A stretch of DNA of 64,000 bases from the human T2T-CHM13v2.0 reference genome, Homo sapiens: the NCBI RefSeq assembly GCF_009914755.1, contig NC_060943.1; one strand, given 5' to 3'. The translations under genes were made by a program, and so were the position numbers. The notes beneath the pieces are model-generated. The model was not told the origin of the DNA, searched no databases, and worked only from the letters and a program-made list of their open reading frames with translations. Position 1 is the first letter of the stretch. Each line of letters starts with the position of its first letter. Below are positions 3,249-52,239 of the stretch, one piece after another.

Positions 3249-3660
3249 TGCTATAGTTTGGTTTGTTTGACCCCTCCAAATCTCATGTTGCAATGTGATC
3301 CCCAGCGTTAGAGGTGGAGCCTGATGGTAAGTGTTTGGGTCATGGGGTTGGAGCCCCCATGATGTCTTGGAGCTTTCCTCACAGTGATGAGTGAGTTCTC
3401 ACTCTATTAAGCCCTGCAAGAGCTGATTGTTAAAAACAGCCTGGCACCTTCCTCCCCTCCTCTCTCGCTTCTTCTCTTGCCTAGTGATCTTTGCACATGC
3501 CAGCTCCTCTTTGCCAGCCTAAGGCCCTCACCAGAAGCAGATCCTGGCATCATCCTTCTTATACAGCCTGCAGGACTGTGAGCCAAAGAAACCTCTTTTC
3601 TTTATAAATTACCCAGCCTCAGGTATTCTTTTTATAGCAACACAAAAATGAATGAAGGCA
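3249..3660. mobile_element. MST-type ERVL-MaLR LTR
   Basis: tgctatagtttg...ccaaatctcatgttg...aaacctcttttctttataaattacccagcctcaggtatt...atagcaacacaaa. Confidence 0.85.
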
Positions 3661-3699: not shown

Positions 3700-4680
3700 G
3701 TTTGGGCTGCTCTATAATTTCATATAAATGGGAGCATACATTATGCACTGTTCTTAAGCCTTAAGGAGTCTTTCATTCAGCATCATGTTTCTGTGATCCA
3801 TCCATGTTGCCTGTTATCAGGAATTCATTCACTTTGATATCTGAGTATGAATGCACCATGGTTTGTTTTTGCTTTCTATATAAATAGACATCTGAGGTAC
3901 TTCCAGGTTTTACATATTATGAATAAGGCTGCTGTGAACTTTTCTGGTGCAAGTGATTCTGTGTCCATGTGTTTTTATTTCTCTTGGGTTAATACTTAGG
4001 AATGAAATTGCTCAGTCAGACTAGATATATGTGTAGTTTTCTGAGAAACCATATGAACTTTTTTCCAAAGTGGTTTTACAATTTTATATTCTCTCCAGAA
4101 ATGAAGAAGAGTTCCAGGTACTCCATATGCCTGCCAACATTTGGATACCTGGGTTGGATACCTTTTAAACTTTATCCATTTCGGTGGCTGTGTAGTGGTG
4201 TATTGTTGTTTTAAATTTTCATTTCTCTAATGACAAATGATGTTGAATACTTTTACGTGTGCTTGTTTTATGATACTTCTTTATAGGAGAATTGTTCAAA
4301 TATTTTGCCCATTTATTATGTGGCTGGGCATTTTATAGTTGACCTGTAGGAGTTCTTTATAGATCTTGCACACTTGTCCTTTGCTAGATATATGTTTTGC
4401 CAATAATTTCCCCAGTTTATAGCTTATGGCTTGCCTATTTATTTTCTGAATTAAATACTTTTGGGGCAAAAGTTAATCTCGTTTATGGTTTCCAGATAAT
4501 AAATTTTCTTTTGATGCAATCTCATTTCTCAGTATCTTATTTTATAATCTTTCTATTCTTAAAAGCTCCTTCGTAGCCCAAGGGATTAATCAGGGTCTCT
4601 TACATTTTGTTCTAAGACGTTTATAATTTTTTGAAAACCTTGTTTTTTGAATCCATCTGGAATTTGTTTTCATAACTGTC
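3700..4680 (-). mobile_element. Old L1M fragment
   Basis: L1 3' motifs (aataaggctgctgtgaac, ttttccaaagtggtt, catttctctaatgacaaatgatgttgaa). Confidence 0.7.
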
Positions 4681-6559: not shown

Positions 6560-6845
6560 AATATTTCCTTGATGTGAAAATAGCCCCACTCTACCTAGAG
6601 GCTTCCTCCTGCTTCTTGAGGTGCAATTAAAGTTCCTTCTCTCCCGTATTTAATACTATGTCCTTCTTACCTGCTCTCCGATCCCTAGCACAAAGTCCTA
6701 TTTAAATTTTTGATATGCATCTGTCTCTCCTACTAGAATGTAAGTTCTTGTAGGTCAAGAAATGTCTTTGAACCCTATCTCACCAGTGACTAGCACAGTG
6801 TCTAGTGCAGGTTCATCACTAAGTAAATGTTTAATAAAATAATAC
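6560..6845 (+). mobile_element. L2 3' end (shared with the duplicon B flank at ~52045-52230)
   Basis: ctagaatgtaagttcttg...ctagcacagtgtctag...gtaaatgttt; the reverse complement aligns by eye to 52045-52230. Confidence 0.7.
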
Positions 6846-7122
6846 ATAAGAAGCTGGCAGAAATTCTTGGGTTTTCCCTCTTTCCTCCATCTGAAGGTGG
6901 TTTTCCTGGGTTATAAAATGCCTTAGAAATTATAGAGTTTTCAACAATGAAGTCTAGTTTAGATTCAGCCTGACTCTATGATCAGCCATGGGTTGGGTGG
7001 AGTGTCAACTTTTGCAACTTGAGATTTTAGTGGTTTAAATAGGGACAAACTGTATCTTTTCCCACATAGGCCCAATCCAGGTACTTACTTGAAAATAATT
7101 TATTTTTCTTTCATTTTTTTCC

Positions 7123-7411
7123 TTTTTGAGAGGGAGTTTCGCTCTTGTTGCCCAGACTGTAGTGCGGTGGCGCGATCTCGGCTCTCTGCAACCTCTGCCT
7201 CCCGGGTTCAAGCAATTCTCCTGCCTCAGACTCCTGAGTAGGTGGAATTACAGTCACCCACCACCACACCCAGCTAATTTTTTGTATTTTTAGTAGAGAT
7301 GGGGTTTCACCATGTTGGCCAGGCTGGTCTCAAACTCCTGACCTCAGGTGATACACCCTCCTTGGCCTCCCAAAGTGCCGGGATTACAGGCATGAGCTAC
7401 TGCGCCCGGCC
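7123..7411 (-). mobile_element. AluS
   Basis: Full dimer; aaaataatt on both sides as a probable TSD. Confidence 0.9.
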
Positions 7412-7597
7412 TCAAAATAATTTTTTGCAGGACTTTTTAAAGGAGTATGATAACAACTTTTGAGTCATATATTTTATCCTAGACTTAAAATGTTTCAGTA
7501 ATTACCCAGTGGCATGAGCTCTTTCTTTCATTGTTCTTGCAGGCCCAAGAGGCTGGATGCCAAACCTATCCTCTCCATGTGAAGCACCAACTTGGGG

Positions 7598-8646
<1,049 letters not shown>

Positions 8647-9689
8647 TAATTTAAAAAAAAAACACATAGAAAAGATATTCAAACATTTTTAAAAGACGAA
8701 AACAGTAAAGTGTGCTTTCCTGTCACACAGCAGGGAGGATCTGACCTTTGGGGAGGTCAGATGGTGTAGGGGAAGCACAGAGGGAGGTGGCAAGGGCATG
8801 TCCTGGTCTCTCTTTCTCTGGACCTCTCCTCTTCCTGGGCTGATATCCTCACACTCTCATCAGAGACATCAGAAGTCAGCACAAACAGTCCTAGAGTGTG
8901 CTACTTCCATGTCACATTAGCTGAGCCACAGAAAATTTTGAAATGTCAAGTCTGGCTCAACCTGTCACCATTCATAGAAGGCATCCTTCCTTCTAGACTG
9001 GCCTAAAAGTGAAGACCCCAGAGCAGAGACTCATGAACATGAAGGAGGCTTTAGATATTTAATCCGGAAAAGCAAGTAAAAGGACCATGGAGACAAATAG
9101 GTTAAAAGAAAAGGAACAGCTTGCCCGCAGCGGGGTGGGAGTTGCTGGAGGTGCTACCAGTCCCAAGACTAGAAGGAAAGTGTCCCAGAGCTTGAGTCTT
9201 CCAGGCTTACAGACAAAACCAGAGTGGAGCACAGTTGGTACTTACAAGTCTCTCTTTCCTCCCCACAGTGGACTTTCTCAAACTGGGGTATTGACCTCTG
9301 ATGAACCGCCATGCAAACCCGTGCCTTTCAACATAAAAAGAAGCCCTTCGAGGTGCTCACCTTCAAGCTTGCTAGAGGAGGAGGAAGAGCAGGTTGAGTT
9401 TGACATAACTAGAATGGGTTGAGCCTTTCCAGCAGAGTAAGGTTCTTTCATGGTGGACAGTGGCCACCCACTGCCATTTCTACAAGAAGATTTTGCTTCT
9501 TAGGCACTGAGTTCCTGGTTCTTTCACTAGAGAAAAATGAGTAGGTTGGCAATCCAGTACTTCCATCTTCTGTGAAGACCTGGGCAGGCGACGGGGGCTT
9601 GGGGGCGGGGGCAGGGACCAAAGACAAGGCTGCCATTTGCTGTGCCCACCACAGAGGGACATTTACTCCACCTGAAGCACAAGTATTTT

Positions 9690-10480
9690 CTCAGTGATGT
9701 TGGCTCCTACAAAGTCAAAAGGGGTAGGCTCCCTGGCTTACGCTCCAGGAGTTTGGACTGAAAGGGACACTAAAAGTGTCTTCCTCTAAGTTTATGATGT
9801 TGCCCTCCTCTGGCTACAACAGTGCTCTGGCCATAAGCATCCCAGGTTCTCTGAATGATGGTGGGTATGGAAATGTTCCCAAACACAGGTATGGCGGTGT
9901 CCCCTCCCACTGTACCAATCTATGCCCAGGGCTGGAAGGTCCGTGGTGCTCTGAACTGGATTCATAAACAGTAGCATCTCCAACCACAAGTGTGGTGTCA
10001 GGCCCTCCAACAGTAGCACATGTGCTCCCGTGGGTGCCTGATAGAAAGTGGGAACATGTGTTTATTAGCCAGGTGGGCCCCAAATGCTCTGACGAGGTGC
10101 AGAAAGAGGACTCTTTGTCACAGTTGTGCTGTGCCCTCCCATTGCAACACATGTGCTCTGAACAGGTGGAGCCCAGGTGCTTTGCATGTAGGCGGACACA
10201 AGAGGGCCTCTAAGCACAAGTGTGGTGTTGGAACCCTCAAGGCTACCGATGCATTCTGGCCAGGTGTGTCCCAGGTGGTCTGACTATAGACAGCAACAGA
10301 ATTATCTCCAGCACCGTTATAGAGATACCCGTCCAACTGATGTGCTCTAGCGGGATGGGACCCGGGTGATCCGAACACAAGGAGGAACAGAAGTTTATTC
10401 TGATATATGCTCCTTCTTAGCGATGTTATCTACTTCAATAGTAACGGTATGCTTTGGCTGGGTGGGCCTCAGTCACTCTG
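9690..10480 (-). repeat. Degenerate ~99-bp (33-codon) tandem array in copy A
   Basis: Recurring ccaggtg / tgtgctc motifs about 90-100 bp apart (e.g. 10173, 10271, 10362); minus-strand peptide YSQTTWDTPGQNASVAL. Confidence 0.75.
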
Positions 10481-10769
10481 TAGCCAGGAAGGAAAGGGCT
10501 CCCAAAACAGATTTCTGCTCCGTAGAGCTGATCTTCCCTCATTGCAACAGGGATGCTATAGGCAGGCAGGACCTGGTGCTCAGGTCTAAGCCCCTCCTAG
10601 AATAAGTTGTGGTTCTGAGTGTTGTCAGCCCTTCTGCAGATTTCAATGACCCCTGACAAGGAGCCAGGGTTTGGGACAGACACAATGACTGCAAACCTGC
10701 CACCACCCAAAGGGGCTTAGATATTGATGGTGCATGGCACTGCTGCAGTGGCCCTTTATCTTGATCCCC

Positions 10770-11162
10770 TTTTTTTTTGAGACGGAGTTTCGCTCTGTTG
10801 CCCAGGCTGGAGTGCAGTGGCGCGATCTTGGCTCACTGCAAGCTCCGCCTCCAGGGTTCATGCCATTCTCCTGCCTCAGGCCTCCACCTCTCAGGTTCAA
10901 GCGATTCTCCCGCCTCCGCCTCTGCCTCCTGGGTTCAAGCAAACCTCCGTCTCCTGGATCCAAGTGATTCTCCTGCCTCAGCCTCCCAAGTAGCTGGGAC
11001 TACAGGTGTGCGCAACCACGCCCAGCTAATTTTTGTATTTTTAGTAGAGATGGGGTTTCACCATGTTGGCCAGGCTGGTCTCGAACTCCTGACCTCAGGT
11101 GATCTGCGCGCCTCGGCCTCCCAAAGTGCTGGGATTACAGGCGTGAGACACCGTGCCCGGCC
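10770..11162 (-). mobile_element. Chimeric Alu with a four-fold internal reiteration
   Basis: About 390 bp; the segment cctccgcctcc.gggttcaagcgattctcctgcctcag recurs at 10843, 10881, 10919 and 10942; no TSD. Confidence 0.9.
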
Positions 11163-12489
11163 CTCAGTCTCTTTTAAGCAAGGATCAGGGGAGTAATCAG
11201 ATGGCCCATATAGCGCTCCTGCTATTGAAGGAGCGCAGATGTCGCTCAGATAGCGACAGGAAGAGAAGTCAGTTTCCCCCTACAGGTAGGATCAGTACTT
11301 TTCCTAAGTGGCTGCACTTCTTTGAGGTGCAAGCATACAGTGCTGTCTTTCTGAGAGCCCTGGCGTGACACCAAGGGGAGGCCCCCTTCTGATGTAAACA
11401 CTGAGCTTGCTGGGTTGCATAAGGCCTCTCAGGGGTGATATAAACCGAGGGGGTAAAGGTGACCGTGTTGCTCCCAGGAACTGTTTTCAGAAGATGCACA
11501 GGTGCAGCAGGAGGATTCCTGCCAGAAGCAGGAACAGAGAGGGCAGGGAGAAAAAGGAGGATGGTGGCCTGGGGGCCAGGCGGGGTGAGGCTTACTGAGG
11601 AAGTTGTCCGTGAAGAGCAGTTTGTGTGCTGTCTGACACTGAGAGTCTAGTAAGAAATTTGGAGAGGTCTCCTAGCTGCATGTTCCTCCAAGGCAAACCA
11701 TGCTGGATGTTTGTGACATGTCATTGGAACACACACCAGAGAAAGTGTGTGCTAGAGCAGAGAGGGAAGACAAGGCACCAAAGGACAAAGGGGAATCCCA
11801 GCAGGACTTTTGAGAGCTTGAGACAGCTCATGCTCTTTGCAGGTGCTTGGCACCAGGTGTGCCCGATGACATGGAAAAGCATCCAGGACTGTGTATTATA
11901 GGACCCCACATAACTGTCACCCCCAGATCGCCAGGTCTGCAGGCTCCTCAGCATCTAACCTAGGGGCAGCAACTAGTGCCTGTGAGTCTCCTAGCCCTTT
12001 TCTCTGGGGTTATTGGAGGTCAGAGGTCAGAGCGCCCTAGATCCTGCCAGGAAGGGGCCCTGGCTCACAGGAGGTCAGGGTAGGAGAGGTGGGGGTGTGG
12101 CCAGCAGGGATCAACTCTGTCTCATGCCATTACTGGTGCACCCAGGTGGCCCAGCAGGGCTGCAGCTGCAAGACACGTGCTCTGATGGGGAGGAGAGACC
12201 AAGCAGTGTGGGGCGTGATTTGCCCTGACCTCTTCCTTTCAGGCAACCTCTGCAGAGGACACTAGTTTACCCCCACAATGTCCCCTTCCCATGTGGTAGC
12301 TCAGGGTTACCACACACTCTTTCCTCCAGGGATCCCTCTAGGGCCTCTCAAGTCTTGGAGCAGGCATATCTTCTCTGTGGCCACCCAGGAAGGTGTGGGT
12401 CCATGGGCATGAGATGTGAGTCCAGCTGGGCTGTGAAGGTTTCTGAGATGGGTACTTGGCACCCCAATTTTCCCAGGTCCTGCACCCCA

Positions 12490-12665
12490 TACCATCCCTT
12501 CCAGGCAAGCAGATCTTCCCTCTTTTAACAAATTTTTCGAATTGCAAACAGCATTTAGGACTTTGCGCCTTCCTCAGGTCACCCATGTGGGCGTAAGGGA
12601 GAGTCAGGATTTGAACTCAGACTGTCTGATTCCAGAGTTTATCCATTGACCACCTGACAGTGGTG
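12490..12665. mobile_element. MIR (shared by all three duplicons)
   Basis: gagtcaggatttgaactcagactgtctgattccagag; counterparts at ~45935-46110 and ~62960-63125. Confidence 0.75.
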
Positions 12666-12779
12666 ATGCCTCATCATGTGTGTCACGTATTTACATTTTT
12701 AAATAGTCCTTAGGGTACTTAGCACCATGTACACCTGTCATGAGAGTGTTCACTGCCTGCATCAGAAGATGCAGGGTGG

Positions 12780-16469: not shown

Positions 16470-18750
16470 GGGAGGGGTTCCAAGATGGCCGAATAGGAAC
16501 AGCTCCAGTCTACAGCTCCCAGGGTGAGCGATGCAGAAGACGGGTGATTTCTGCATTTCCAACTGAGCTTTGAAGAGAGTAGTGGTTCTCCCAGTACGGA
16601 GTTTGAGATGTCAGAATGGACAGACTGCCTCCTCAAATGGGTCCTTGACCCCCGAGTAGCCTAACTGGGAGGCACCTCCCAGTAGGGGCTGACTGATACC
16701 TCATATGGCCCAGTGCCCCTCTGAGATGAAGCTTCCAGGAGGAACGATCAGACAGCAACATTTGCCGTTCTGCAATATTTGCTGTTCTGCAGCCTCCACT
16801 GGTGGACCTGCAGCAAACTCCAACAGACCTGCAGCTGAGGTCCTGACTGTTAGAAGGAAAACTAACAAACAGAAAGGACATCCACACCAAAACCCCATCT
16901 GAACGTCACCATCATCAAAGACCAAAGATAGATAAAACCACAAAGATGGGGAGAAACCAGAGCAGAAAAGCTGAAAATTCTAAAAATCAGAGCGCTTCCT
17001 CTCCTTCAAAGGAATGCAGCTCCTCGCCAGCGATGGAATGAAGCTGGACGGAGAATGACTTTGACTAGTTGAGAGAGGAAGGCTTCAGACAAGCAGTAAT
17101 AACAAACTCCTCCGAGCTAAAGGAGGAAGTTTGAACCCATGGCAAAGAAGCTAAAAACCTTCAAAAAAGATTAGATGAATGGCTAACTAGGATAAACAGC
17201 ATAGAGAAGACCTTAAATGACCTGATGGAGCTGAAAACTATGGCACGAGAACTACGTGATGCATGCACAAGCTTCACTAGCCGATTTGATCAGCTGGAAG
17301 AAAGGGTGTCAGTGATTGAAGATCAAATGAATGAAATGAAGCGAGAAGAGAAGTTTAGAGAAAATAGAGTAAAAAGAAATGAACAAAGCCTCCAAGAAAT
17401 ATAGGACTGTGTGAAAAGACCAAATCTACGTCTGATTGGTGTACCTGAAAGTGATGGGGAGAATGGAATCAAGTGGAAAACACTCTTCAGGATATTATCA
17501 AGGAGAACTTCCCCAACCTAGCAAGGCAGGCCAACATTCAAATTCAGGAAATACAGAGAATGCCACAAAGATACTCCTCAAGAAGAGCAAATCCAAGACA
17601 CATAATCATCAGATTCACCAAAGATGAAATGAAGGAAAAAATGTTAAGGTCAGCCAGAGAGAAAGGTCGGGTTACTCACAAAGGGAAGCCCATCAGACTA
17701 ACAGCAGATCTCTTGGCAGAAACTCTACAAGCCAGAAGAGAGTGGGGACCAATATTTGACATTCTTAAAGAAAAGAATTTTCAACCCAGAATTTCATATC
17801 CAGCCAAACTAAGCTTCATAAGTGAAGGAGAAATAAAATCCTTTACAGACAAGCAAATGCTGAGAGATTTTGTCACCACCAGGCCTGCCCTACAAGAGCT
17901 CCTGAAGGAAGCACTAAACATGGAAAGGAACAACTGATATCAGCCACCGTGAAAACATGCCAAATTGTAAGACCATTGATGCTAGGAAGAAACTGCATCA
18001 ACTAACGAGCAAAATAACCAGCTAACATCATAATGACAGGATAAAATTCACACATAACAATATTAACCTTAAATGTAAATGGCTACAGACACAGATTGGC
18101 AAATTGGATAAAGAGTCAAGACCCATCAGTGTGCTGTATTCAGGAGACCCATCTCAGGTGCAGAGACACACATAGGCTCAAAATAAAGGGATGGAGGAAG
18201 ATCTACCAAGCAAATGGAAAACAAAAAAAAAGCAGGGGCTGCAATTCTAGTCTCTGATAAAACAGACTTTAAACCAACAAAGATCAAAAGAGACAAAGAA
18301 GGCCATTACATAATGGTAAAGGGATCAATTCAACAAGAAGAGCTAACTATCCTAAATATATATATGCACCCAATACAGGAGCACCCAGATTCACAAAGCA
18401 AGTCCTTAGAGACCTACAAAGAGACTTAGACTCCCACACAATAATAATGGGAGACTTTAACACCCCACTGTCAACATTAGACAGATCAATGAGACGGAAA
18501 GTTAAAAGGATGTCCAGGAATTGAATTCAGCTCTGCACCATGCGGACCTAATAGACATCTACAGAACTCTCCACCCCAAATCAATGATATACATTCTTCT
18601 CAGCACCACACCACACCTATTCCAAAATTGACCACACAGTTGGAAGTGAAGCACTCCTCAGCAAATGTAAAAGAACAGAAATTATAACAAACTGTCTCTC
18701 AGAACACAGTGCAATCAAACTAGAACTCAGGATTAAGATACTCACTCAAG
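16470..18750 (+). mobile_element. L1PA5/6-like element, spliced 5'UTR (SpIRE97/622 type), 3'-truncated
   Basis: Starts ggttccaagatggccgaatagg; ctgag|ctttgaag join at 16567/16568; disrupted ORF1 (MGRNQSRKAENSKNQ..) and ORF2 endonuclease region; ends abruptly at 18750. Confidence 0.9.
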
Positions 18751-18902: not shown

Positions 18903-19211
18903 TCAGTGGGTGCGAGCACCGTGCGCGAGCCGAAGCAGGGCGAGGCATTGCCTCACTTGGGAAGCGCAAGGGGTCAGGGAGTTCCCTTTCTGAGTCAAAG
19001 AAAGGGGTGACGGACGGCACCTGGAAAATCGGGTCACTCCTACCCAAATACTGCGCTTTTCCGACGGGCTTAAAAAACGGCGCACCACGAGAATATATCC
19101 CGCACCTGGCTCGGAGGGTCCTACGCCCACGGAGTCTCGCTGATTGCTAGCACAGCAGTCTGAGATCAAACTGCAAGGCGGCAGCGAGGCTGGGGGAGGG
19201 GCGCCCGCCAT
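18903..19211 (-). CDS. L1 antisense ORF0 (open, C-terminally extended)
   Basis: MAGAPPPASLPPCSLISDCCASNQRDSVGVGPSEPG... matches L1 ORF0; ATG at 19211. Expression unknown. Confidence 0.6.
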   Translation of the reverse strand: MAGAPPPASLPPCSLISDCCASNQRDSVGVGPSEPGAGYILVVRRFLSPSEKRSIWVGVTRFSRCRPSPLSLTQKGNSLTPCASQVRQCLALLRLAHGARTH

Positions 19212-19646
19212 TGCCCAGGCTTGATTAGGTAAACAAAGCAGCCAGGAAGCTCGAACTGGGTGGAGCCCACCACAGCTCAAGGAGGCCTGCCTGCCTCAGT
19301 AGGCTCCACCTCTGGGGGCAGGGCACAGACAAACAAAAAGACAGCAGTAACCTCTGCAGACTTAAATGTCCCTGTCTGACAGCTTTGAAGAGAGCAGTGG
19401 TTCTCCCAGCACGCAGCTGGAGATCTGAGAACAGGCAGACTGCCTCCTGACCCCCGAGCAGCCTAACTCGGAGGCACCCCCTAGCAGGGGCACACTGACA
19501 TCTCACACGGCAGGGTATTCCAACAGACCTGCAGCTGAGGGTCCTCTCTGTTAGAAGGAAAACTAACAAACAGAAAGGACATCCACACCAAAAACCCATC
19601 TGTACATCACCATCATCAAAGACCAAAAGTAGATAAAACCACAAAG

Positions 19647-20660
19647 ATGGGGAAAAAACAGAGCAGAAAAACTGGAAACTCTAAAAAGCAGAGCGCCTCT
19701 CCTCCTCCAAAGGAACGCAGTTCCTCACCAGCAACGGAACAAAGCTGGATGGAGAATGACTTTGACGAGCTGAGAGAAGAAGGCATCAGACGATCAAATT
19801 ACCCTGAGCTAGGGGAAGACATTCAAACCAAAGGCAAAGAAGTTGAAAACTTTGAAAAAAATTTAGAAGAATGTATAACTAGAATAACTAATACAGAGAA
19901 GTGCTTAAAGGAGCTGATGGAGCTGAAAACCAAGGCTCGAGAACTACGTGAAGAATGCAGAAGCCTCAGGAGCCGATGCGATCAACTGGAAGAAAGAGTA
20001 TCAGCAATGGAAGATGAAATGAATGAAATGAAGCGAGAAGGGAAGTTTAGAGAAAAAAGAATAAAAAGAAATGAGCAAAGCCTCCAAGAAATATGGGACT
20101 ATGTGAAAAGACCAAATCTACGTCTGATTGGTGTACCTGAAAGTGATGGGGAGAATGGAACCAAGTTGGAAAACACTCTGCAGGATATTATCCAGGAGAA
20201 CTTCCCCAATCTAGCAAGGCAGGCCAACGTTCAGATTCAGGAAATACAGAGAACGCCACAAAGATACTCCTCAAGAAGAGCAACTCCAAGACACATAATT
20301 GTCAGATTCACCAAAGTTGAAATGAAGGAAAAAATGTTAAGGGCAGCCAGAGAGAAAGGTCGGGTTACCCTCAAAGGGAGGCCCATCAGACTAACAGCGG
20401 ATCTCTCAGCAGAAACCCTACAAGCCAGAAGAGAGTGGGGGCCAATATTCAACATTCTTAAAAGAATTTTCAACGCAGAATTTCATATCCAGCCAAACTA
20501 GGCTTCATAAGTGAAGGAGAAATAAAATACTTTACAGACACGCAAATGCTGAGAGATTTTGTCACCACCAGGCCTGCCTTACAAGAGCTCCTGAAGGAAG
20601 CACTAAACATGGAAAGGAACAACCAGTCCCAGCCGCTGCAAAATCATGCCAAAATGTAAA
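19647..20660 (+). pseudogene. L1 ORF1p, frameshifted near 20460
   Basis: MGKKQSRKTGNSK...; the track ORF stops at 284 aa after a small deletion in cttaaagaaaagaa. Confidence 0.95.
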
Positions 20661-20722
20661 GACCATCGAGACTAGGAAGAAATTGCATCAACTAACGAGC
20701 AAAATAACCAGCTAACATCATA

Positions 20723-24547
<3,825 letters not shown>

Positions 24548-44489: not shown

Positions 44490-46740
44490 TAACTGTCAAC
44501 CAAGAATTCTATATCTGGCAAAACAGTCCTTCAAAAATGAGGCAGAAATTAAGATATTCCCAGGTAAACAAAATCTGAAGGAGTTTGTTCCCTACAGGAG
44601 ACTCTAAAATGGGCCTTTCAAATTGAAGAGAAAGAGCATTCATTAGACAGTAACACGAGGCCATAGAAAGAAACAAAGATGTCTGGTAATGATAACTACA
44701 CAAGCAAATATAGGAGCCAGTGTTGCTGTGCGTTTGGCTTGTAAATTCACTTTTTCTTACATAATTTAAGAGATGAGTACATAAAAATTATAAGTGTATA
44801 TTACTGGACACACAATATATAAGGAGGTAATCTGTGACAAGATAAAGGGGGAGGAGCTGTATAGGATTAGATACTTTATATGCCACTTAAGTTAACTTGC
44901 AATAATTTCAAACTACATTGTTATAGGATGTTAAATATAATTCCCATGGAAACCACAAGGAAGTATCTTTAAAAATATACATAAGGTCATAAAGAGGGAA
45001 TCAAAAACATTTATTATGAAATATCAGTTAAACACAAAAAAGGCAGTAATGGAGGAAAAGAATAAAAAAGGCATAAGATATACAGAAAACAAATAAAATG
45101 GTTGAAGTTCTACCTTATCAGTAATTACTTAAAATGTAAATGAATTAAACTCTCCAATAAACATGTGGATATTGGCATAATAGATGAAAACCAAGACCCA
45201 ATGATATGCTGTCTAAACAAGACTTGTTTAGATCCAAAGACACATATAGGTTGAAAGTGAAAGGATGGGAAATATTATCCAATAAAAATAATGACCAAAC
45301 AAGAGCTAAAGTGGCTATACTAATATTGGACTTAAAGTTAAAAACTATTAAAAGGGCCAGGCCTGGTGGCTCATGCCTGTAATCCTAGCACTTTGGGAGG
45401 CCGAGGCGAGTGGATCATGAGGTCAGGAGTTCGAGACCATCTTGGCCAACACGGTGAAACCCTGTTTCTACCAAAAATACAAAAATTAGCTGGGCGTGGT
45501 GGCATGTGCCTGTAATCCCAGCTACTCGGGAGGCTGAGGCAGGAGAATCACTTGAACCAGGGAGTCAGAGGTTGCAGTGAACCGAGATCACGCCGTTGTA
45601 CTCCGGCCTGGTGACAGAGTGAGACTCTGTCTCAAGAAAAAAAAAATTACTATTAAAAGGAGAGACATTATATACTGATAAAAGGGTCAGCTTATCAAGA
45701 AGATATAACAATTATAAATATGTATGATCTAACATGACCACTTTTGGGTGGGGTTTTTCCCAGAATGCAAGGTTGGTTTAAGATTTAAAAAATAAATGTA
45801 ATTCACCATATTAAGAGAATAAAGGAGAAAAGCCATAGGCAGTGCCTGTGTTCATTATGGAGGTGTAATTGTACTAAGTACCCTACAGACTGTCAAAACT
45901 GGTAATATGTGATGTCTACATGATGGGAAGCCACCATAGTCTGGTGGTTAAATGTATGAGCTCTGGAATCAGACAATCAGGGTTCAAATTCCACCCAGTG
46001 TGGAATGTGGGCCACTAGTACACATGTGACACAAGGAAGGTTTTATGGCTTAAATGCTGTCTTACTAAATTTGTAAAAATAAGTGAAGATAAACTGCCTG
46101 CCAGGAAAGAATGTGTTGTGGTATCCTTGTTGCCACCTCAGAAAGCCTAGCAGCCCCCTGGAGATGCTTGGGATAGTCGCCTGTCCCGGGTGGCCACAGA
46201 AAAGGTGCACCCAGCTCCTGGAACTGAAGAAGAGCTAGGGAAGCCCCTGGAGGAGCTGGTGTTGGAGCCTTGACCTACGAGCCTGGAGGAGTGGGGAAAG
46301 GTGGTGAGGGTGAACTGGTGTCATCTGCAGCAGTTGTCTGAAAGGAACAGGCTGAGGTAAATTCGCCCTGTGGCACTGAGGTGCCTGCAGACATGGAAGT
46401 GACAGTTATGTAGGCTCCTGGAGTTCAGTCTTGGAGAGTCCCACCTTGCCACCGAGACTGTCTGGTGCCAAACACCTGCAACCCATGATAGGAATGCCAA
46501 GAAGTACTAGAGAGTCCTGCTGGGGTTCAGCCTCTGGACCTCTTGCCCTTCGATGTTTTTCCTCATGCATTTTGCTGGCAATATGCCCTTAGCTGGGGCA
46601 CTTTTTCTCTGTCGCATGTCCCGTGTGTCACATGCATCAAGCTGAACAGTACCTGGTTTGCCATGGAGGTAGCAGGTAGTGAGGAGACCTCTCCAAATGT
46701 CATATCCTCCAAGGACCCGGCAGCGCACAAACTGCCCTTC

Positions 46741-49700
46741 ATAGGCAACTTGCTTAGCAAGGTTTGCCCCCATCCTGCTCGCATGCCTGGCCATGCTATC
46801 ATGCACTCGTTCAACCTGACCCAGCGTGCTCCCCCTTCTGGCTGGGATCACTCCACTTTGGCTTTTTCCCTGGTAGTTCTACCAGGATCCTGGTGTCATA
46901 TACCCCTAAAGGACAGTATCCCATCAGGAAACCTCAGTGTTCCTCTCTGGCGATCCTAAGGGGACTCTCTGAAAATGACATTGCTGTCTGCTTGTACCAC
47001 AAAGTGGCCACTCCAGAATGACAAAGATCCCTCCTCCAAGGCACAAATGGACTCTCCTCCCTCGTCACCTCTAAGACCTGGGACAGCCACTCACACCTCC
47101 CCCCAGATCCTTGCTTAAAGGAGACCAAGAAGAAGATACCAGGGGCATGAAGGAAATGGATACTGAAGGAGGAAGATCCTCAGTGTGGGAGAAGACGCAG
47201 TTAGAGAAAAGGGGCCCCTATAGCAGTGGGAGAGTACCATCAGCATCTAGGTCCCTAGCAACCAGCAGTAGCATCACATATTTGGGAGCAGTCCTGAACC
47301 CCTGAAGATAAGCCTCTATTCCAATCACTCAGAAGACAGCTGAGGTTAGATTTTACAGATGTCTTCTATGAGTTCGTTCACAAAAGATCATGCCATCACC
47401 AGCCCAGATAGTCCTGCCTGCTAGAGGCTTCCTGCCTCTTCATGGCAGTGAAGGAGGTGCAGCAGCGCTGTATGGCCAGCCACATTCTCCTTCCTGCTGC
47501 CAGAGAAAGGAAGAGCTTGATGAAGGCCATTATCAACTCAGCTCTCCAGCCACATTGAAGTCAAAGACAGCAACTCACAGAGGAAAGCTTTCAGATACTC
47601 TGTCAATGAGAAATTCTCCACTCACATCTGCCAGTTGTAGTCTCTGTAAACAGAAATTGTCAGTGCCCCTGCTGCTGCCATTGCTGCCCCCATTGCCACT
47701 GTTGTGAGAGTGAGGAGAGCTGCCCCCATCTCCTACCTTCCCTGCATAGTTACTGCAGAAGACCTTAGCTTGGAGAACCCTGAACACGAAGGGAACCTCA
47801 GGGTGGGAGAATAATTCTCAGGTCCCTTCAGACAGCGTAGCAGCTCAGCCTTCCTGTTCTCCCTACCTGCTGTGGAGGCCACAGATCCTTTGCCATTGGT
47901 CACCTTTTCCTTGCAGATTCCAGAAACTACCAAATTAGCAGTCACTGACTTGGCTGGCCTGTTAGGCCACTCATACTCTCTGACCCTGTACCTACACACA
48001 CATCAGATACTGATCATGAAATGAGATGCACAGTTCCTGACTCTCCTTTTGCTCTTCCTGCTATTTCTCACTTTGGATTCCAACCTATATTTGCTATTCC
48101 ACTTAATAATGAGAACAGGGGCCCTCTGCATTCCAGTCCCTCGGTCATACTTGCGGGATCCTCTACTTCTGCCTAACCCACACGTCCTAGAACTTTCTCC
48201 CTCTCCTTAAAGCTTACCTTCTGCAGAATGGAGTCATATACACCTGTGCAGGTGGATTCTCCTCCCCTTTTCTTACAGACCCCTCCTCAAGTTGCTTGCA
48301 CCAGTACCCCTGTCTTTACCAGCCAACCCATCACTGCTTCTGCAGTCACTTCTAGCATGCCAGGCAGCCTGTCTGCAGACTGGACTTCCCAGCCTGCCTG
48401 GACTGTGTTATAATTGATGTGGATAGTACTCTTCCTTCCAAGCTTTCTTCTTCAGGTCTCCCTCAAGATCCGGGGTGAGCTTCCTCCCATTGGACCAGGC
48501 CCATCCCAGTGTGGAGCGGATATCCCCTGCAAAGGCCATCATCCCCACCAGCCCACCTGCTTTTATGGTCAGCAGCCCTACTTGAACTTCTAAGCTTGCT
48601 TTTGATTCAGGAAACACTTACCAGCTGAAATCTGGGGGTCCTGATTCAGGGCCTTGCCAGAGAACCACTCCCCCCAGTGCCCTGTCTTTTCTGGCCCACC
48701 TACCACTGATTCTGCAGTCACCTCCACTCCAGTATACAACCCGTCTTCAGACTTGGTGTCTCCGCCTGACTTTGCCTCTAAGGAAATCAACATGGGTACC
48801 ATGCCCATGTCCCCATCTGTTATCATCCTGTCTCTCCCTGCAATGTTAACAGCTGTTTCCCTTTGAGAAACCTGCCAGCCCCTGAAAACCCTTCACACTT
48901 AACCTCTACTGCAGCCCTAGAACCCAATGGCAGCACAACTCAGTTGGCTTTTGGGAACTAAACACTCCCGTGTCCACTTTGGCATCAATGTCAGCATTCA
49001 GGCAGCCCATGGTGGTGCCTCGGGTGTTTTACCCATTGGTGTGGACACTCTTACTCTTGCCATGAAATGCTACCAGAAAGCACAACACTGAGGACTGTTG
49101 CTCATTTCTTGCTGATGCCAATCCAAGCCAATTTGTATTTGTGGGATCTGAAGCCCTTATGGATAGCAAAAGCTTTGGGGTCATTGGGTCTACCACGCAG
49201 AGTCTACCACCACATCTAGATCGCTTAGCTTTGGAGCAAAATGGCTGGGGGACAGCCAGTACCACAGCTCATGATGGGGGAGGCTTAGACCTGAGCGCCA
49301 GGGTCCTGTCAGCCCTGATGCACTCCTGCTGCAATTGGAGAAGCCGGCACTGCTGAGAGCAAATCAAATCTGCCCTGGGAAACACTTTCCTTCCCACCTG
49401 TAGTTAGAGCACCTGGTGCCAGCCCAGCCAAAACACGCCTACTACTACTGGAAGATTTGTGATCACTGAGAAGGAGTGTTTCAGAAGACATGGCTGTTCC
49501 CCCTTTTGTTCAGATCACCTGGGACCTGTTTGGCCAGAGCACTTGTGTTCCAGTGGAAGGGACCAGCACCATACCTGTGCTGAGATCCTTCTCTTCCTGC
49601 CCCAGTCAAGCCACCTGGGGCACACCTAACTAAAGTACACCTGTTGCAGTCTAAGGGACCAGCACTGCATCTATGCTCGGATGCCTTTATGTTCCTACCT

Positions 49701-50640
49701 ATAGCCAGAACACCTGAATCCCACCTGTCCAGGGCACGTGTGTTGCAATGGAAGGGGCCAACATCATACCTATTTTTAGAGAGTCTTCTCTTCCTGCATA
49801 TGGTCTAAGTACTGGGGCCCACCTGGCCAGAGCAAACCTGCTGGAGATACCTGCACCACTGAGAAGAAATGCATGCCACGTGATATATCTGTTCATTCCT
49901 TCCATCAGACACCTAGGGCCCACCTGTGCTGTTTGAAGGGCTGGCATTTCACCTGTGATTGGAGATGCTACTGGCAGAGGACCTGGGGTACACAGTCTGG
50001 AGCACAGGTGATACACTGGGCGGAGGCAGCCCCATTCCTGGGCTCCAGGGTATTTGTATGCTCAGCATCATTGACAGCTGCTGGCGTGGTCTTGCCCAGG
50101 GCACATCTGTTACAGTCTCCCAGGAGAACACCATACATACACCTTTAGGAAGACACTTCTATTCCTGCACTCACTCACAATACCTGGGCTCTATCTAGAC
50201 AAAGTAGCCCTCTGACTTGGTGTAGTGAACACCATTGAGAAAATACCTGGCTATGGGCCAGTTTTCCATTAGTCTTAGACTGGCAGGACCCCTTGCTGCC
50301 TATAGATATCCCGTTTTGTCTTGCCCATTTGCCTTAACAAGCCCCGTTCTTTCTTTTCCAGATTGCTATACAAATATGATATAACATAGCCTTGTTCTTA
50401 TTCATTAATCCTCTGTGCTAAGCTTCAGCACTTTTGCTCCATCTTTCAGGGCAAATGTACCTCCAGCATGAGCATGGAAGCAGCAGTCTCGCTTAGGACA
50501 CATTTGTCACCTGCCCAGGCTTCCTTTGGAGGCCAAAGTTTGGGATCACCAACTCATTCATTTTCTTCTAGTGAAAGAAACAATATCTCATCAACTTTAA
50601 GCAAAAGCTATCCAGAAGTAGCTGATAGTGGTGGGGGACC
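46741..50640 (+). pseudogene. NPAP1/POM121-like intronless pseudogene, copy B (most complete copy)
   Basis: I(ATA)GNLLSK (NPAP1 begins MGNLLSK); TPKGQYPIRKPQCS; PDPCLKET; EKRGPYSSG; CKQKLSVPLLLPLLPPLPLL*E*GELPP (NPAP1 CKRKMSIPLLLPLPPSLPLLWDRGELPP); VTAEDLSLE (POM121 ITAEDLDLE); VDSPP; C-terminal SPAQASFGG. Reference sequences recalled from memory. Many stops and frameshifts. Confidence 0.88.
49410..50250 (+). repeat. Degenerate ~99-bp (33-codon) tandem array in copy B, about 8-9 units
   Basis: cacctgg-like unit starts near 49410, 49517, 49612, 49711, 49809, 49910, 49980, 50079 and 50181. Confidence 0.8.
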
Positions 50641-51039
50641 ACAGTTTGCCATAAATGGACCTTGCTCCATTAGGAAGAGGCTCCACCTCTTCTAGTTATG
50701 TCAAACAAACTTAACCTGCCCTCTATCATCCTAAAGAAAGCTGGCAGCCCAACCCTTCAGGTGTTTTGTATATATGTTAAAGGGTGTGGGTTCAGATGAG
50801 ACTGGTCAGAAGTCAACACACTGGCCTTGAGGCAGTCTACTGTGGAAAGAAGAAAAAGATCAGTAAGTATATCCACCACACCATACCCAGTTTCAACTTC
50901 TCAGTCTGGTAGAACCAAGCTATGGGCCAGTTTTCCTGCCATCTTACGCTGGCAGGACCCCTTGCTGCCTGTAGCTGCCTCCTTTGGTCCAGCCCATTTG
51001 CCTCAGTGGGCCCTTTTCTTTCTTTCCTAGACTGATAAA

Positions 51040-51154
51040 CACACACACACATATATATATACACACACATATATGTTATATGTGTATATATATATACACA
51101 CACATATAATGTATATGTATGTGTATATATATACATATATACATCACGTGTGTG

Positions 51155-51186
<32 letters not shown>
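51040..51186. repeat. (CA)/(TA)/(GA) compound microsatellite
   Basis: Direct reading. Confidence 0.95.
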
Positions 51187-52239
51187 ATGCCTTCCTTTTG
51201 TTCATTGATCCTCTCTGCTTACATGTCTTTTCTATTTTAGTCAACGGTGGAAGAAGAATTGACTTCTTTCTATAAGTGGTGCTGTGTTGAGGCAGATGTA
51301 ACTTTTCAAAGTTCTATGGCTCAGCAAATAGGAGGTGGCATAGCCACACTTTACAACTGCACAGGCTGACATCTGACATCTCTGTGTTTTGATGTAAAGG
51401 ATAGCAGCCATGAGGAAGGGAAGCTCAAAGGAGGAAGGGATGGGTGACCCTCCCTTGCCTTTTCCCTCTGTGCTCCTCTTCCATCACTCTGATTTGGTCG
51501 TACGCCAGACCACCCCCGATGTGTGTTAGGGAAACAAAATTAACAAATTTGGTTGAAAATAATTAAATGTCTCATTTGTGTCTTTCTCTTTCATTTAGAC
51601 TTAAGAAAATCATCCCCACATATTCACACCTCGACCAAAGAGGATGGGTATGGTATAGAGGCCCTTATGTCTAGAAGAAAAAAAGGAAGAAAAAGCTCAT
51701 GGCTCCTTTGTGATTATTGGAAATTTTAAGACTAGGATGTCACATATTATATAGAAGTGTTTTCATGCTCCATGAAAATTCAGAAAAGATCATTTTTTCA
51801 AGAAAATACCTAGATAAGGTCTATTTGGAAAAGTAATTGGTCTGGCTCTAGTATAAAACCCTAAAATAGCAAATTACAGTCCTTACCATTTTATCCAAAT
51901 CTAGCTGGCTGTGGAGTCCTGCTGTGTCTCCAATAGACTTAATTCCTGAAAATACAATCTTTCCTAAGATAATTCAAGGTTCAGGAGAACCAGCTGAAGC
52001 TGGGGGAAAAAGAAAAATGTAAGCATTTCCCTTAGCTTAGACATATTATTTTACTAAATACTTATTCAGAGTTGATTCTACACTAGACATTGTGCTTGAG
52101 CCTAGTGACATATAGCTGAAAGGCATCTATTGCCTCAAAGGAATTTACAATATAGTAGGAGTGATGGGTGAATATATCAAAAGTAAAATCGGAGGGGTTA
52201 CTAGTAGGGATATGGGAGCAGTAGGAACACAAAACTAAG

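What the first reader, a model, noticed from the sequence alone, without database searches (positions are those of the whole stretch)
49410..50250. Family-specific 33-codon tandem repeat amplified from the POM121/NPAP1 C-terminal segment
Seen: about 8-9 degenerate ~99-bp units in B and a matching array in A (9690-10480). Frame-corrected units read like TWDLFGQSTCVPVEGTSTIPVLRSFSLP, T*IPPVQGTCVAMEGANIIPIFRESSLPAYGLS and YSQTTWDTPGQNASVAL. Recalled: NPAP1 has a single such segment (AWDPTGHSMAAAPQGASNIPVFG) and POM121 has [18 protein letters not shown]. Inference: a period near a multiple of three suggests the expansion happened while the gene was coding and before A and B split. It would have replaced the FG-type tail with a new W-anchored low-complexity repeat domain.
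Basis: partly seen in the sequence, partly recalled or inferred. Interest (0 to 1): 0.8.

Follow-up and report, generated by a model that had tools for sequence, protein, structure and literature searches.

The report
Fossil repeat tail of NPAP1-like pseudogenes
Two dead, mirror-image copies of a nuclear-pore-related gene on chromosome 19 each keep the worn remains of a 33-codon repeat, but that repeat is an old feature shared by the whole NPAP1-like gene family, not something new at this site.

Summary
B (49295-50254, +) carries 10 head-to-tail degenerate units and A (9630-10583, -) carries 9, with a period of 99/98 bp. They are too decayed for Tandem Repeats Finder, but autocorrelation and unit HMMs show them clearly.

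Both arrays are the 3' ends of unannotated, intronless NPAP1-like pseudogenes that lie in an old inverted segmental duplication.

The unit does derive from one FG-bearing segment near the POM121 C-terminus, and POM121 proteins have exactly one unit. The array did precede the A/B split.

It is not private to A/B, though. The NPAP1 locus has 10 units of exactly 99 bp: three start inside the reading frame (two intact at protein level) and seven lie past the stop codon. Arrays also occur at chr10:64.8 Mb, chr10:75.9 Mb, chr9 NPAP1P6 and a third chr19 copy. They are translated in frame in annotated alpaca, seal and dog NPAP1-like proteins.

The arrays are fossils with no sign of present function. 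Neither Pfam nor the family's founding paper describes the repeat domain.

The parts
49295..50254 (+). Array B: 10 degenerate head-to-tail units of about 99 bp. They lie at 49295-49404, 49398-49512, 49510-49606, 49607-49702, 49704-49803, 49806-49903, 49905-49973, 49977-50079, 50055-50172 and 50175-50254.
   Evidence: nhmmer with the 19-unit HMM gives E 1.5e-23 to 4.6e-4. The 5-unit seed HMM finds 9 units. The top autocorrelation lag is 99. W-codon anchors read TGG four times, TGA once and TAG once. The region is not repeat-masked.
46741..49294 (+). Body of pseudogene B. It is intronless and colinear with NPAP1/NPAP1L proteins. It begins at an ATA codon where the family has its start ATG, reading IGNLLSK against the family's MGNLLSK.
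   Evidence: A family profile HMM gives a colinear chain of 10 hits at 46899-49266 covering profile positions 66-995, with best E 2.4e-16. The reversed window gives 0 hits. The N-terminus is shown. tblastn with NPAP1 is. The tree places B inside the NPAP1L/NPAP1 clade, with 100/100 support against POM121.
9630..10583 (-). Array A: 9 degenerate head-to-tail units, unit-by-unit orthologous to array B.
   Evidence: nhmmer gives E 8.5e-20 to 2.3e-9. The seed HMM trained on B only finds 9 units. The top autocorrelation lag is 98. A/B unit colinearity is reached by 0 of 2000 permutations. blastn aligns A 10068-10617 with B 49827-49257 at 67-71% identity.
10621..10716 (-). Pseudogene A: the segment just upstream of the array (family profile positions 959-990).
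   Evidence: hmmsearch gives E 0.065, which is weak. Its position agrees with the A/B blastn colinearity.
11278..11556 (-). Pseudogene A: N-terminal remnant (family profile positions 24-120). The roughly 2 kb of coding sequence between this remnant and the tail is missing in A.
   Evidence: hmmsearch gives E 1.1e-6. In the A/B blastn map, A 10617-11591 corresponds to B 49257-46761.
10764..11167 (.). Masked interspersed repeat sitting between the two remnants of pseudogene A.
   Evidence: The stretch is masked in the annotation file. It is 80-84% identical to other masked copies in the window.
6696..12736 (-). Duplicated segment A. It is paralogous to B well beyond the gene itself, so it is a DNA-level segmental duplicate.
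   Evidence: The outermost blastn pairs are A 6696-7095 with B 52193-51795, and A 12609-12736 with B 45989-45861. Identity is 67-78% and K2P is 0.24-0.44.
45861..52193 (+). Duplicated segment B, inverted relative to A.
   Evidence: Same blastn pairs as for segment A. A third copy outside the window is colinear with both.

Best explanation
The two arrays are decayed remains of the C-terminal 33-codon repeat domain of an ancient NPAP1-like (POM121-derived, intronless) retrogene.

Proposed history:
1. Soon after a POM121 mRNA was retrocopied in an early placental ancestor, a 99-bp stretch was amplified in frame to about 8-10 tandem copies. That stretch encodes the last FG-bearing segment of POM121's penultimate coding exon (human POM121 reads ...[27 protein letters not shown] at the exon end).
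2. This produced a tail with far fewer FG motifs and a tryptophan near the start of most units. POM121's own last ~68 residues are no longer detectable after it.
3. One family member landed on what is now chr19q13. It was copied there by segmental (DNA-level) duplication into at least three copies: C outside the window, A inverted, and B.
4. All of these copies died. A also lost its middle part.

Shown here: the arrays, their homology, their presence across the family, and the A/B unit colinearity. Inferred: the amplification mechanism (unequal crossing-over or slippage), the order of events, and an age of the order of 10^8 years.

The arrays do nothing as coding sequence today.
For: Family membership of B and A
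- B is a colinear, intronless chain of 10 family-profile hits (best E 2.4e-16). A keeps the N-terminal piece and the tail. The reversed window gives 0 hits.
- B starts with IGNLLSK where the family has MGNLLSK.
- The tree puts B inside the NPAP1L/NPAP1 clade, with 100/100 support against POM121 and POM121L2.

The same array elsewhere in the human genome
- The chr19-derived DNA HMM finds 10 head-to-tail units in the NPAP1 locus (L001 3255-4207; E 1.7e-13 to 0.015). It finds 15 in chr10 LOC100420828, 3 in chr9 NPAP1P6, 3 weak ones in NPAP1P4, one in the POM121 3' exons (E 1.6e-5) and one weak one in POM121L2.
- It finds 12-14 units in a third chr19 copy and 4 at chr10:75.91 Mb.
- NPAP1's stop codon is at L001 3562-3564, so seven of its units lie after the stop.
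- TRF itself reports a period of 99 at L001 3759-3975, and the lag-99 autocorrelation there has z 9.3.

Intact proteins
- The HMM made from the relic units alone hits 14 of 31 family proteins and 0 of 31 reversed controls. Alpaca has 4 units and one seal has 4.
- In alpaca the unit-initial W residues are spaced 33, 34, 63, 33, 34 and 33 residues apart (intervening tryptophans summed).
- After iteration the counts are: POM121/POM121C 1 unit in 6 of 6, primate NPAP1 2 units in 8 of 8, seals 4-6, alpaca 5, dogs 2.

Timing and tail
- A/B unit colinearity: 0 of 2000 permutations reach the observed score.
- The terminal unit of A matches the terminal unit of NPAP1 with score 28, against -7 to 0 for the other nine NPAP1 units.
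- The POM121 tail is conserved in POM121L2 (E 1e-14 to 1e-17) but has no match at E<0.3 in the NPAP1-type loci.
Against: - Unit-by-unit orthology between the chr19 arrays and the NPAP1 array is not significant overall (B p 0.12; A p 0.07). Some units may have been gained or lost independently in each lineage.
- Pfam does not recognise any of five stop-free ORF pieces of B.
- tblastn with low-complexity filtering gives few or no hits of family proteins on A and B.
- None of the 29 proteins retrieved is closer to the chr19 copies than to NPAP1, so no intact ortholog of the chr19 copies is known.
- B's grouping with chr10:64.8 Mb and armadillo is weak (88/87, drawn open).
- Eight of the 24 NPAP1-type proteins (ruminants, manatee, raccoon dog) show no unit.
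- The iterated protein counts are partly circular, because the model was retrained on its own hits.
Confidence: 0.85

Rival explanations
1. One reading: the 33-codon unit was amplified only in the lineage leading to A and B, creating a new domain that NPAP1 and NPAP1L lack.
For: The NPAP1 protein shows only 2 recognisable units. A genome-wide DNA search with the B array finds only A and B.
Against: The NPAP1 locus has 10 units at a period of exactly 99 bp, seven of them past its stop codon. Arrays also exist at chr10:64.8 Mb, chr10:75.9 Mb and chr9 NPAP1P6, and in frame in alpaca, seal and dog proteins. The genome-wide six-frame search finds these loci.
Confidence: 0.03
2. Parallel amplification: the family ancestor had one or two units, and each lineage (chr19, chr10, NPAP1/chr9, Laurasiatheria) expanded the same unit independently.
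For: Inner units of the chr19 arrays do not pair off significantly with NPAP1 units (p 0.12 and 0.07). Unit numbers differ: 9-10, 12-14 and 7+8, and seals show extra lineage-specific copies. NPAP1 units 6-8 are about 80% alike, which suggests recent turnover.
Against: All arrays have the same period and the same starting point, directly after the segment homologous to POM121's pre-unit region. A distinct terminal unit is shared by A and NPAP1. A distinct unit with a ...GHTTSV... core is shared by NPAP1's post-stop frame, seals, alpaca and dog; this was seen by eye. Four or more independent expansions with identical boundaries would be needed.
Confidence: 0.08
3. The arrays are fossils as coding sequence but now serve as non-coding DNA or RNA, as parts or neighbours of the antisense lncRNAs at each copy.
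For: LINC00904 at B, LINC02965 at A and LINC01801 at copy C each end antisense to a relic. LINC01801's last exon overlaps the array of copy C.
Against: In the window no RefSeq exon or listed regulatory element overlaps either array. There are no Rfam matches. A, B and C have drifted to 65-78% identity, as expected without constraint. Nothing relevant appeared in the paper listing for these lncRNAs.
Confidence: 0.04
4. The periodicity is chance, or an unrelated non-coding minisatellite.
For: TRF finds nothing, and unit identity is low.
Against: The same lag appears independently in A and B. All 18 HMM hits in 64 kb fall in the two arrays. The unit is homologous to coding units in NPAP1, NPAP1-like and POM121 proteins, with clean reversed controls.
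Confidence: 0.01

Closest known systems
Human NPAP1 (chr15q11, Prader-Willi region): C-terminus plus the sequence just past its stop codon
   Same: It has the same 99-bp unit, the same array start and a similar number of units (10). Its terminal unit matches that of copy A. It belongs to the same intronless POM121-derived family (PMC3942032, whole main text read).
   Different: NPAP1 is an intact, expressed gene whose reading frame leaves the array in the third unit. Two intact units are therefore translated (8 of 8 primate proteins), and seven units lie in what is presumably the 3'UTR. The chr19 copies are dead throughout.
NPAP1-like (NPAP1L) proteins of alpaca, seals and dog (NCBI/UniRef models P0008-P0013, P0016)
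   Same: They carry the array in frame at the C-terminus. In alpaca the unit-initial tryptophans are about 33 residues apart, which gives about 8 units by eye.
   Different: They are annotated as coding. The tryptophan is often replaced, for example in dog units. Seals have extra lineage-specific copies with basic inserts. By sequence they are closer to NPAP1 and chr9 than to the chr19 copies.
POM121 / POM121C C-terminal FG domain
   Same: It is the source of the unit. One unit lies about 67 residues before the C-terminus, at the end of the penultimate coding exon in human. The segment before it aligns to NPAP1 directly upstream of the first array unit.
   Different: It has one unit rather than an array. 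Its last 260 residues hold 12-17 FG dipeptides, and no tryptophan in 5 of 6 proteins. It has introns and a transmembrane N-terminus (PMC3942032). Its terminal 68 residues are not found in NPAP1-type loci.
LOC100420828 (chr10:64.83 Mb), annotated 'nuclear pore associated protein 1 pseudogene'
   Same: It is the nearest human relative of B in the tree, at 42% identity over 194 columns. It is dead, intronless and carries the array.
   Different: It is annotated, while A and B are not. It has a partial tandem duplication of the gene body, giving two arrays of 7 and 8 units.

Membership tests
POM121-related NPAP1L/NPAP1/UPF0607 retrogene family (Neumann et al. 2014, PMC3942032) | Protein-level homology to NPAP1/NPAP1L that is closer than to POM121 | tested here: met
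   The family profile gives 10 colinear hits on B (best E 2.4e-16) and 4 on A, with 0 on the reversed window. In the tree B falls inside the clade with 100/100 support against POM121 and POM121L2.
POM121-related NPAP1L/NPAP1/UPF0607 retrogene family (Neumann et al. 2014, PMC3942032) | No conserved introns: the gene is colinear with the protein | tested here: met
   In B, profile positions 66-995 map to 46899-49266 in order, the array follows directly, and there are no intron-sized gaps. Copy A has a deletion and an inserted masked repeat.
POM121-related NPAP1L/NPAP1/UPF0607 retrogene family (Neumann et al. 2014, PMC3942032) | Lacks POM121's transmembrane first exon; the protein starts at MGNLLSK-type residues | tested here: met
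   B reads IGNLLSK at 46741-46761, aligned with residue 1 of NPAP1. No POM121 N-terminal match lies upstream.
POM121-related NPAP1L/NPAP1/UPF0607 retrogene family (Neumann et al. 2014, PMC3942032) | Pfam PF15229 (POM121 family) domain | tested here: inconclusive
   PF15229 is found in NPAP1, alpaca and seal proteins. It is not found in any of 5 stop-free ORF pieces of B of 47-105 aa. Those pieces are short and decayed. The family profile does cover the equivalent positions 143-344 in B.
POM121-related NPAP1L/NPAP1/UPF0607 retrogene family (Neumann et al. 2014, PMC3942032) | Open reading frame (a functional member rather than a pseudogene) | tested here: not met
   The longest + strand ORF over B is 138 aa. 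The start codon is ATA. Stops and frame changes occur within units. A and B are relics, not genes.
FG-repeat nucleoporin domain | Many FG dipeptides separated by polar spacers | tested here: not met
   The last 260 residues hold 12-17 FG in 6 of 6 POM121 proteins but 0-3 in the 24 NPAP1-type proteins. Among the chr19 units only A6 keeps ...IPVFG....
Non-coding minisatellite / VNTR | Head-to-tail units alike enough for TRF, with no coding ancestry | tested here: not met
   TRF is negative at A and B. The units are homologous to translated units in family proteins.
GW/WG 'Ago-hook' type tryptophan repeats (a recalled class, offered only as a lead) | Tryptophans flanked by small residues in a disordered region that bind Argonaute | not testable with these tools
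   The only data are these: alpaca has 6 WG/GW dipeptides in its last 260 residues, and the AlphaFold2 model has no fold there. Binding cannot be tested here.

The most novel reading that the evidence does not exclude
After retrocopying, the NPAP1-like family turned one FG segment of POM121 into a new tryptophan-anchored, roughly 33-residue repeat domain of about 8-10 units. That domain would have its own binding function at or away from the nuclear pore. It was then dismantled repeatedly: by a frame change in the ancestor of monkeys and apes (leaving NPAP1 with two intact units and seven fossil units after its stop), by replacement with other repeats in ruminants, and by gene death at chr19, chr10 and chr9. 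On this reading human NPAP1 is a tail-truncated derivative of the ancestral protein, and the chr19 fossils record the ancestral state.
Probability: 0.2. Interest if true: 0.55.

Novelty: new member of a known kind. Interest (0 to 1): 0.3.

Why it matters
For this window the result is deflationary. The array is an inherited fossil in two unannotated pseudogenes, not a new domain born here.

Three by-products may be useful to people who work on NPAP1 and nucleoporin evolution:
- **More family members.** The POM121-derived retrogene family has at least three further ancient members on chr19q13, and relics at chr10:64.8 and 75.9 Mb. The founding paper's main text does not mention these.
- **An undescribed repeat domain.** The family has a C-terminal 33-residue repeat domain that neither Pfam nor that paper describes.
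- **A truncated NPAP1.** The imprinted Prader-Willi-region gene NPAP1 carries most of that domain as dead sequence behind its stop codon. The human protein is therefore truncated relative to carnivore and camelid relatives.

These points bear on how the family is aligned, on tests for positive selection at its C-terminus, and on what function to look for.

Tried and rejected
Steps that led nowhere or argued against a reading:
- **TRF on both arrays** found nothing. The arrays are too degenerate, so I moved to autocorrelation and HMMs.
Six-frame and HMM searches showed the paralogous arrays are simply too diverged for DNA search.
- **Pfam on five stop-free ORF pieces of B** gave no family.
- **tblastn of 31 family proteins with low-complexity filtering** gave almost nothing on A and B. 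The uncorrected tblastn E-values are therefore not relied on. The family-profile result, with its reversed control, is used instead.
- **Second protein-database search with the alpaca tail** (residues 785-1047) returned only the query itself. The taxonomic breadth of intact arrays rests on the 29 proteins. In some searches, 5861 and 1010 candidates respectively, known from samples alone, were left out by the tool.
- **Unit-by-unit orthology of chr19 arrays to the NPAP1 array** was not significant except for the terminal unit.
- **POM121's last 68 residues** were not found after the arrays.
- **Rfam** found nothing over either copy.
- **AlphaFold2 of alpaca NPAP1-like protein** with a 15-row alignment gave mean pLDDT 36 and no secondary structure. 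Block means over roughly residues 780-1047, the array region, were 29-38. This is compatible with disorder, but the alignment is shallow and a fold search would have been meaningless, so none was run.
- **Literature.** Searches were seen as listings and abstract starts only. The Neumann 2014 main text was read through parts 1-3, and term counts in it were 'repeat' 0, 'chromosome 19' 0, 'chromosome 10' 0 and 'C-termin' 0. Its supplementary tables were closed and may list further loci.
- **Synteny and orthologs in other mammals** could not be examined, because no mammalian genomes other than this reference are on hand.
- **Closed regions.** The genome search does not show matches in closed regions, so the list of loci is a lower bound.


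Full report
**Observation.** Tandem Repeats Finder lists no array at 49410-50250 or 9690-10480. The periodicity is nevertheless real.
- The repeat finder gives repeat families spaced 99, 98, 195 and 197 bp in B, and 93, 98, 91 and 107 bp in A on the opposite strand.
- The strongest of 220 autocorrelation lags is 99 in B (z 4.2) and 98 in A (z 4.1). Only 0.3% and 0.7% of Markov-simulated sequences reach that z at any lag. Neighbouring stretches show no such peak.
- A profile built from five B units and run over the whole window on both strands gave 18 hits at E<=1: nine head to tail in A and nine in B, and none elsewhere.
- With all 19 units in the model the arrays are B 49295-50254 (10 units) and A 9630-10583 (9 units). 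The same model on 219,509 reversed bases gave one hit, at E 0.41.
The recalled NPAP1 and POM121 strings are correct.
- A codon-aware translation of the aligned units shows a common unit. The clearest natural example is window 49514-49612, ITWDLFGQSTCVPVEGTSTIPVLRSFSSCPSQA.

**What surrounds the arrays.** The stretch 45659-51007 is not repeat-masked and carries no RefSeq gene model on the + strand.
- A profile of 14 NPAP1 and NPAP1-like proteins, run against stop-free fragments of all six frames, gave 17 hits at E<=1.
- Ten of them form one colinear chain on the + strand from 46899 to 49266, covering profile positions 66 to 995 (best E 2.4e-16). Four lie on the - strand in A. Three weak ones (E 0.2-0.8) lie elsewhere. 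The reversed window gave none.
- B begins with ATA GGC AAC TTG CTT AGC AAG, which reads IGNLLSK where the family has MGNLLSK.
- B is therefore a full-length, intronless, dead NPAP1-like gene of about 3.5 kb, and the array is its 3' end.
- A keeps only the N-terminal piece (11278-11556) and the tail. About 2 kb of the middle is missing and a masked repeat sits in the gap.
- A and B are inverted copies of a segment that extends well beyond the gene (A 6696-12736, B 45861-52193). Identity is 67-78% and K2P is 0.24-0.44. They arose by DNA duplication, not by separate retrocopying.
- At commonly assumed mammalian neutral rates (my own knowledge, not a call) that distance means an age of the order of 10^8 years.

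**The array is not private to A and B.** The DNA profile made only from the chr19 units was run on 17 other human family loci.
- It found 10 head-to-tail units in the NPAP1 locus (L001 3255-4207; E 1.7e-13 to 0.015).
- It found 15 in the annotated pseudogene LOC100420828 at chr10:64.83 Mb, 3 in chr9 NPAP1P6 and 3 weak ones in NPAP1P4.
- It found a single unit in the POM121 3' exons (E 1.6e-5), a single weak one in POM121L2, and four hits at E 0.16-0.72 that I disregard.

The NPAP1 ORF ends at L001 3564, so seven of the ten units lie past the stop. Their translations are plainly units, for example STWGPPGQSTNHAMRDSNTTAVTGCTF. There the period is exact:
- lag 99 has z 9.3;
- TRF reports a period of 99 with 2.2 copies and 80% matches at L001 3759-3975;
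- four of seven W-anchor distances are 99.

A genome-wide six-frame search with ten natural units gave 17 matches at E<=1 among 82 candidates. Besides the loci used to build the model, these include chr10:75.91 Mb, chr9 NPAP1P6, one doubtful chr5 match (E 0.95), and chr19:37,360,586, which is 25 kb upstream of the window. That last site is a third chr19 copy (C) with 12-14 units, colinear with both A and B at 65-78% identity.

**Intact proteins.** A word-based database search with human NPAP1 returned 29 named proteins.
- The peptide profile made from the relic units alone, at 6 bits or more, hit 14 of 31 proteins (the 29 plus human NPAP1 and POM121L2) and 0 of 31 reversed controls.
- In that search alpaca had 4 units, seals 2-4, dogs 1-2, armadillo 1, three primate NPAP1 proteins (human, green monkey, a langur) 2 each, and POM121C of three species 1 each.
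- After four rounds of retraining on its own hits, which is partly circular, the counts were as follows:
  - POM121/POM121C: 1 unit in 6 of 6.
  - Primate NPAP1: 2 units in 8 of 8.
  - Seals: 4, 5 and 6.
  - Alpaca: 5.
  - Dogs: 2 each (three models).
  - Armadillo: 1.
  - POM121L2: 0.
  - Eight others (ruminants, manatee, raccoon dog): 0.
  - Reversed controls: 0 of 31.
- In the alpaca protein the unit-initial tryptophans (intervening tryptophans summed) are spaced 33, 34, 63, 33, 34 and 33 residues apart, which by eye is eight units.

The array is therefore translated in frame in annotated genes of other mammals.

**Origin.**
- POM121's single unit lies about 67 residues from its C-terminus. 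In human it ends exactly at an exon end.
- The POM121 segment before and including the unit aligns to NPAP1 at L001 3145-3342 (E 1e-3 to 4e-6), directly at the first array unit.
- POM121's last 68 residues are well conserved in POM121L2 (E 1e-14 to 1e-17). They have no match better than E 0.3 in NPAP1, chr19, chr10 or chr9 loci.
- The last 260 residues hold 12-17 FG in 6 of 6 POM121 proteins, with no W in 5 of 6. The 24 NPAP1-type proteins have 0-3 FG and 0-12 W, and 21 of the 24 have at least one W.

It fits the family as a whole, not A and B alone.

**Timing.**
- Units of A and B correspond in order: A0-A4 with B0-B4, A5 with B6 and A8 with B9. No permutation of 2000 reaches the observed colinear score. 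The array was in place before A and B separated.
- Against NPAP1 the colinearity is not significant (p 0.12 for B, 0.07 for A). Only the terminal unit of A stands out, with score 28 against -7 to 0.
- In a maximum-likelihood tree of 29 rows, B lies inside the NPAP1L/NPAP1 clade with 100/100 support against POM121 and POM121L2. It lies near the base of the clade, loosely grouped with chr10:64.8 Mb and armadillo (88/87, drawn open). The tree used profile columns 60-640, so the array was excluded, and 11 of 40 rows were left out as redundant or lacking those columns.
- The array is thus found on both sides of the deepest splits in the clade and is single-copy in POM121. The economical reading is one amplification in the family ancestor, followed by some later gain and loss of units.

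**Function.**
- As coding sequence the chr19 arrays are dead. The longest + strand ORF anywhere over pseudogene B is 138 aa, and the longest over the array itself is 91 aa. W codons have become TGA or TAG in two of the six anchored B units, and unit spacing has drifted off multiples of three.
- No RefSeq exon or listed regulatory element overlaps them, and Rfam finds nothing.
- For the ancestral domain, AlphaFold2 on the alpaca protein gave mean pLDDT 36 and no secondary structure, with block means of 29-38 across the tail. This is compatible with a disordered, FG-domain-like tail, but the alignment has only 15 rows.
- What the tryptophan-bearing units bind is unknown. Binding to a transport receptor, by analogy with FG repeats, is inference only.

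**Comparison and novelty.**
- A and B meet the tested defining features of the POM121-related NPAP1L/NPAP1/UPF0607 retrogene family: homology, no introns, and an N-terminus without the transmembrane exon. They are pseudogenes.
- The founding paper (PMC3942032, main text read) reports family members on chromosomes 15 and 9 and the UPF0607 group. Its main text contains no occurrence of 'repeat', 'chromosome 19', 'chromosome 10' or 'C-termin'. Its supplementary tables could not be opened.
- Pfam covers only the N-terminal PF15229 region of NPAP1, alpaca and seal proteins.
- Paper searches on NPAP1 or C15orf2 with 'repeat' terms gave nothing pertinent in the listings.

The chr19 relics are new, unannotated members of a known family. 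The repeat domain is real but inherited.

**Caveats.**
- All cross-species evidence rests on 29 database proteins, which are gene models.
- No synteny could be checked, so no ortholog of the chr19 copies is known.
- Matches in closed regions of the reference are not shown, so the locus list is a lower bound.
- Dates are rough inferences.

Noticed in passing
L023 4879-6178 (chr19:37,360,378-37,361,677, + strand; about 25 kb upstream of the window): A third chr19 copy (C) of the same duplicated segment. It has a longer array of 12-14 units and is colinear with both A and B at 65-78% identity. It has no pseudogene annotation.
   Followed up: partly
window 50375-50839 (-) and 9269-9502 (+); L023 5243-6579 (-): Three lncRNAs each end antisense to one of the three relics, just 3' of the array or within it. 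The last exons of LINC00904 (copy B) and LINC02965 (copy A) are homologous to each other (A 9366-9555 with B 50742-50543). The last exon of LINC01801 overlaps about 940 bp of the array of copy C.
   Followed up: partly
L001 3561-4207 (chr15, NPAP1, downstream of the stop codon at 3562-3564): Seven fossil units of the repeat lie behind the NPAP1 stop codon. TRF reports a period of 99 bp at 3759-3975. The reading frame leaves the array in unit 3, just after ...QHTW, in all 8 primate proteins seen.
   Followed up: yes
L012 2182-6896 (chr10:64,831,662-64,836,376, LOC100420828): This annotated NPAP1 pseudogene holds a partial tandem duplication. The family profile runs through positions 12-1045, then again through about 543-972. 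Each run is followed by its own array (7 and 8 units). The second array extends beyond the annotated gene end.
   Followed up: partly
L024 4960-5361 (chr10:75,912,459-75,912,860): An isolated four-unit relic of the same repeat (best E 2e-19). The family profile finds no recognisable gene body there, and the gene table lists no POM121- or NPAP1-type entry at this place.
   Followed up: partly
P0017-P0019, P0021-P0023 (deer, cattle, reindeer) and P0014 (raccoon dog): These NPAP1-type gene models end in quite different short proline/glycine-rich tandem repeats and show no 33-residue unit. I did not examine whether this is real replacement of the tail, a shifted frame of the same DNA, or a gene-model artefact.
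   Followed up: no
window 49295-50254 and 9630-10583; also L023 and L012 arrays: A secondary autocorrelation peak at lag 24 recurs in B (z 2.9), A (z 2.9), C (z 2.6) and the first chr10 array (z 3.6, its top lag). This hints at a sub-repeat inside the unit.
   Followed up: no
window 16819-18749 and 19519-21450: A pair of direct repeats of about 1.9 kb at 89% identity, inside masked sequence next to LINC03049's first exon and a listed hESC enhancer (19027-19572). It is probably an interspersed element and was not examined further.
   Followed up: no
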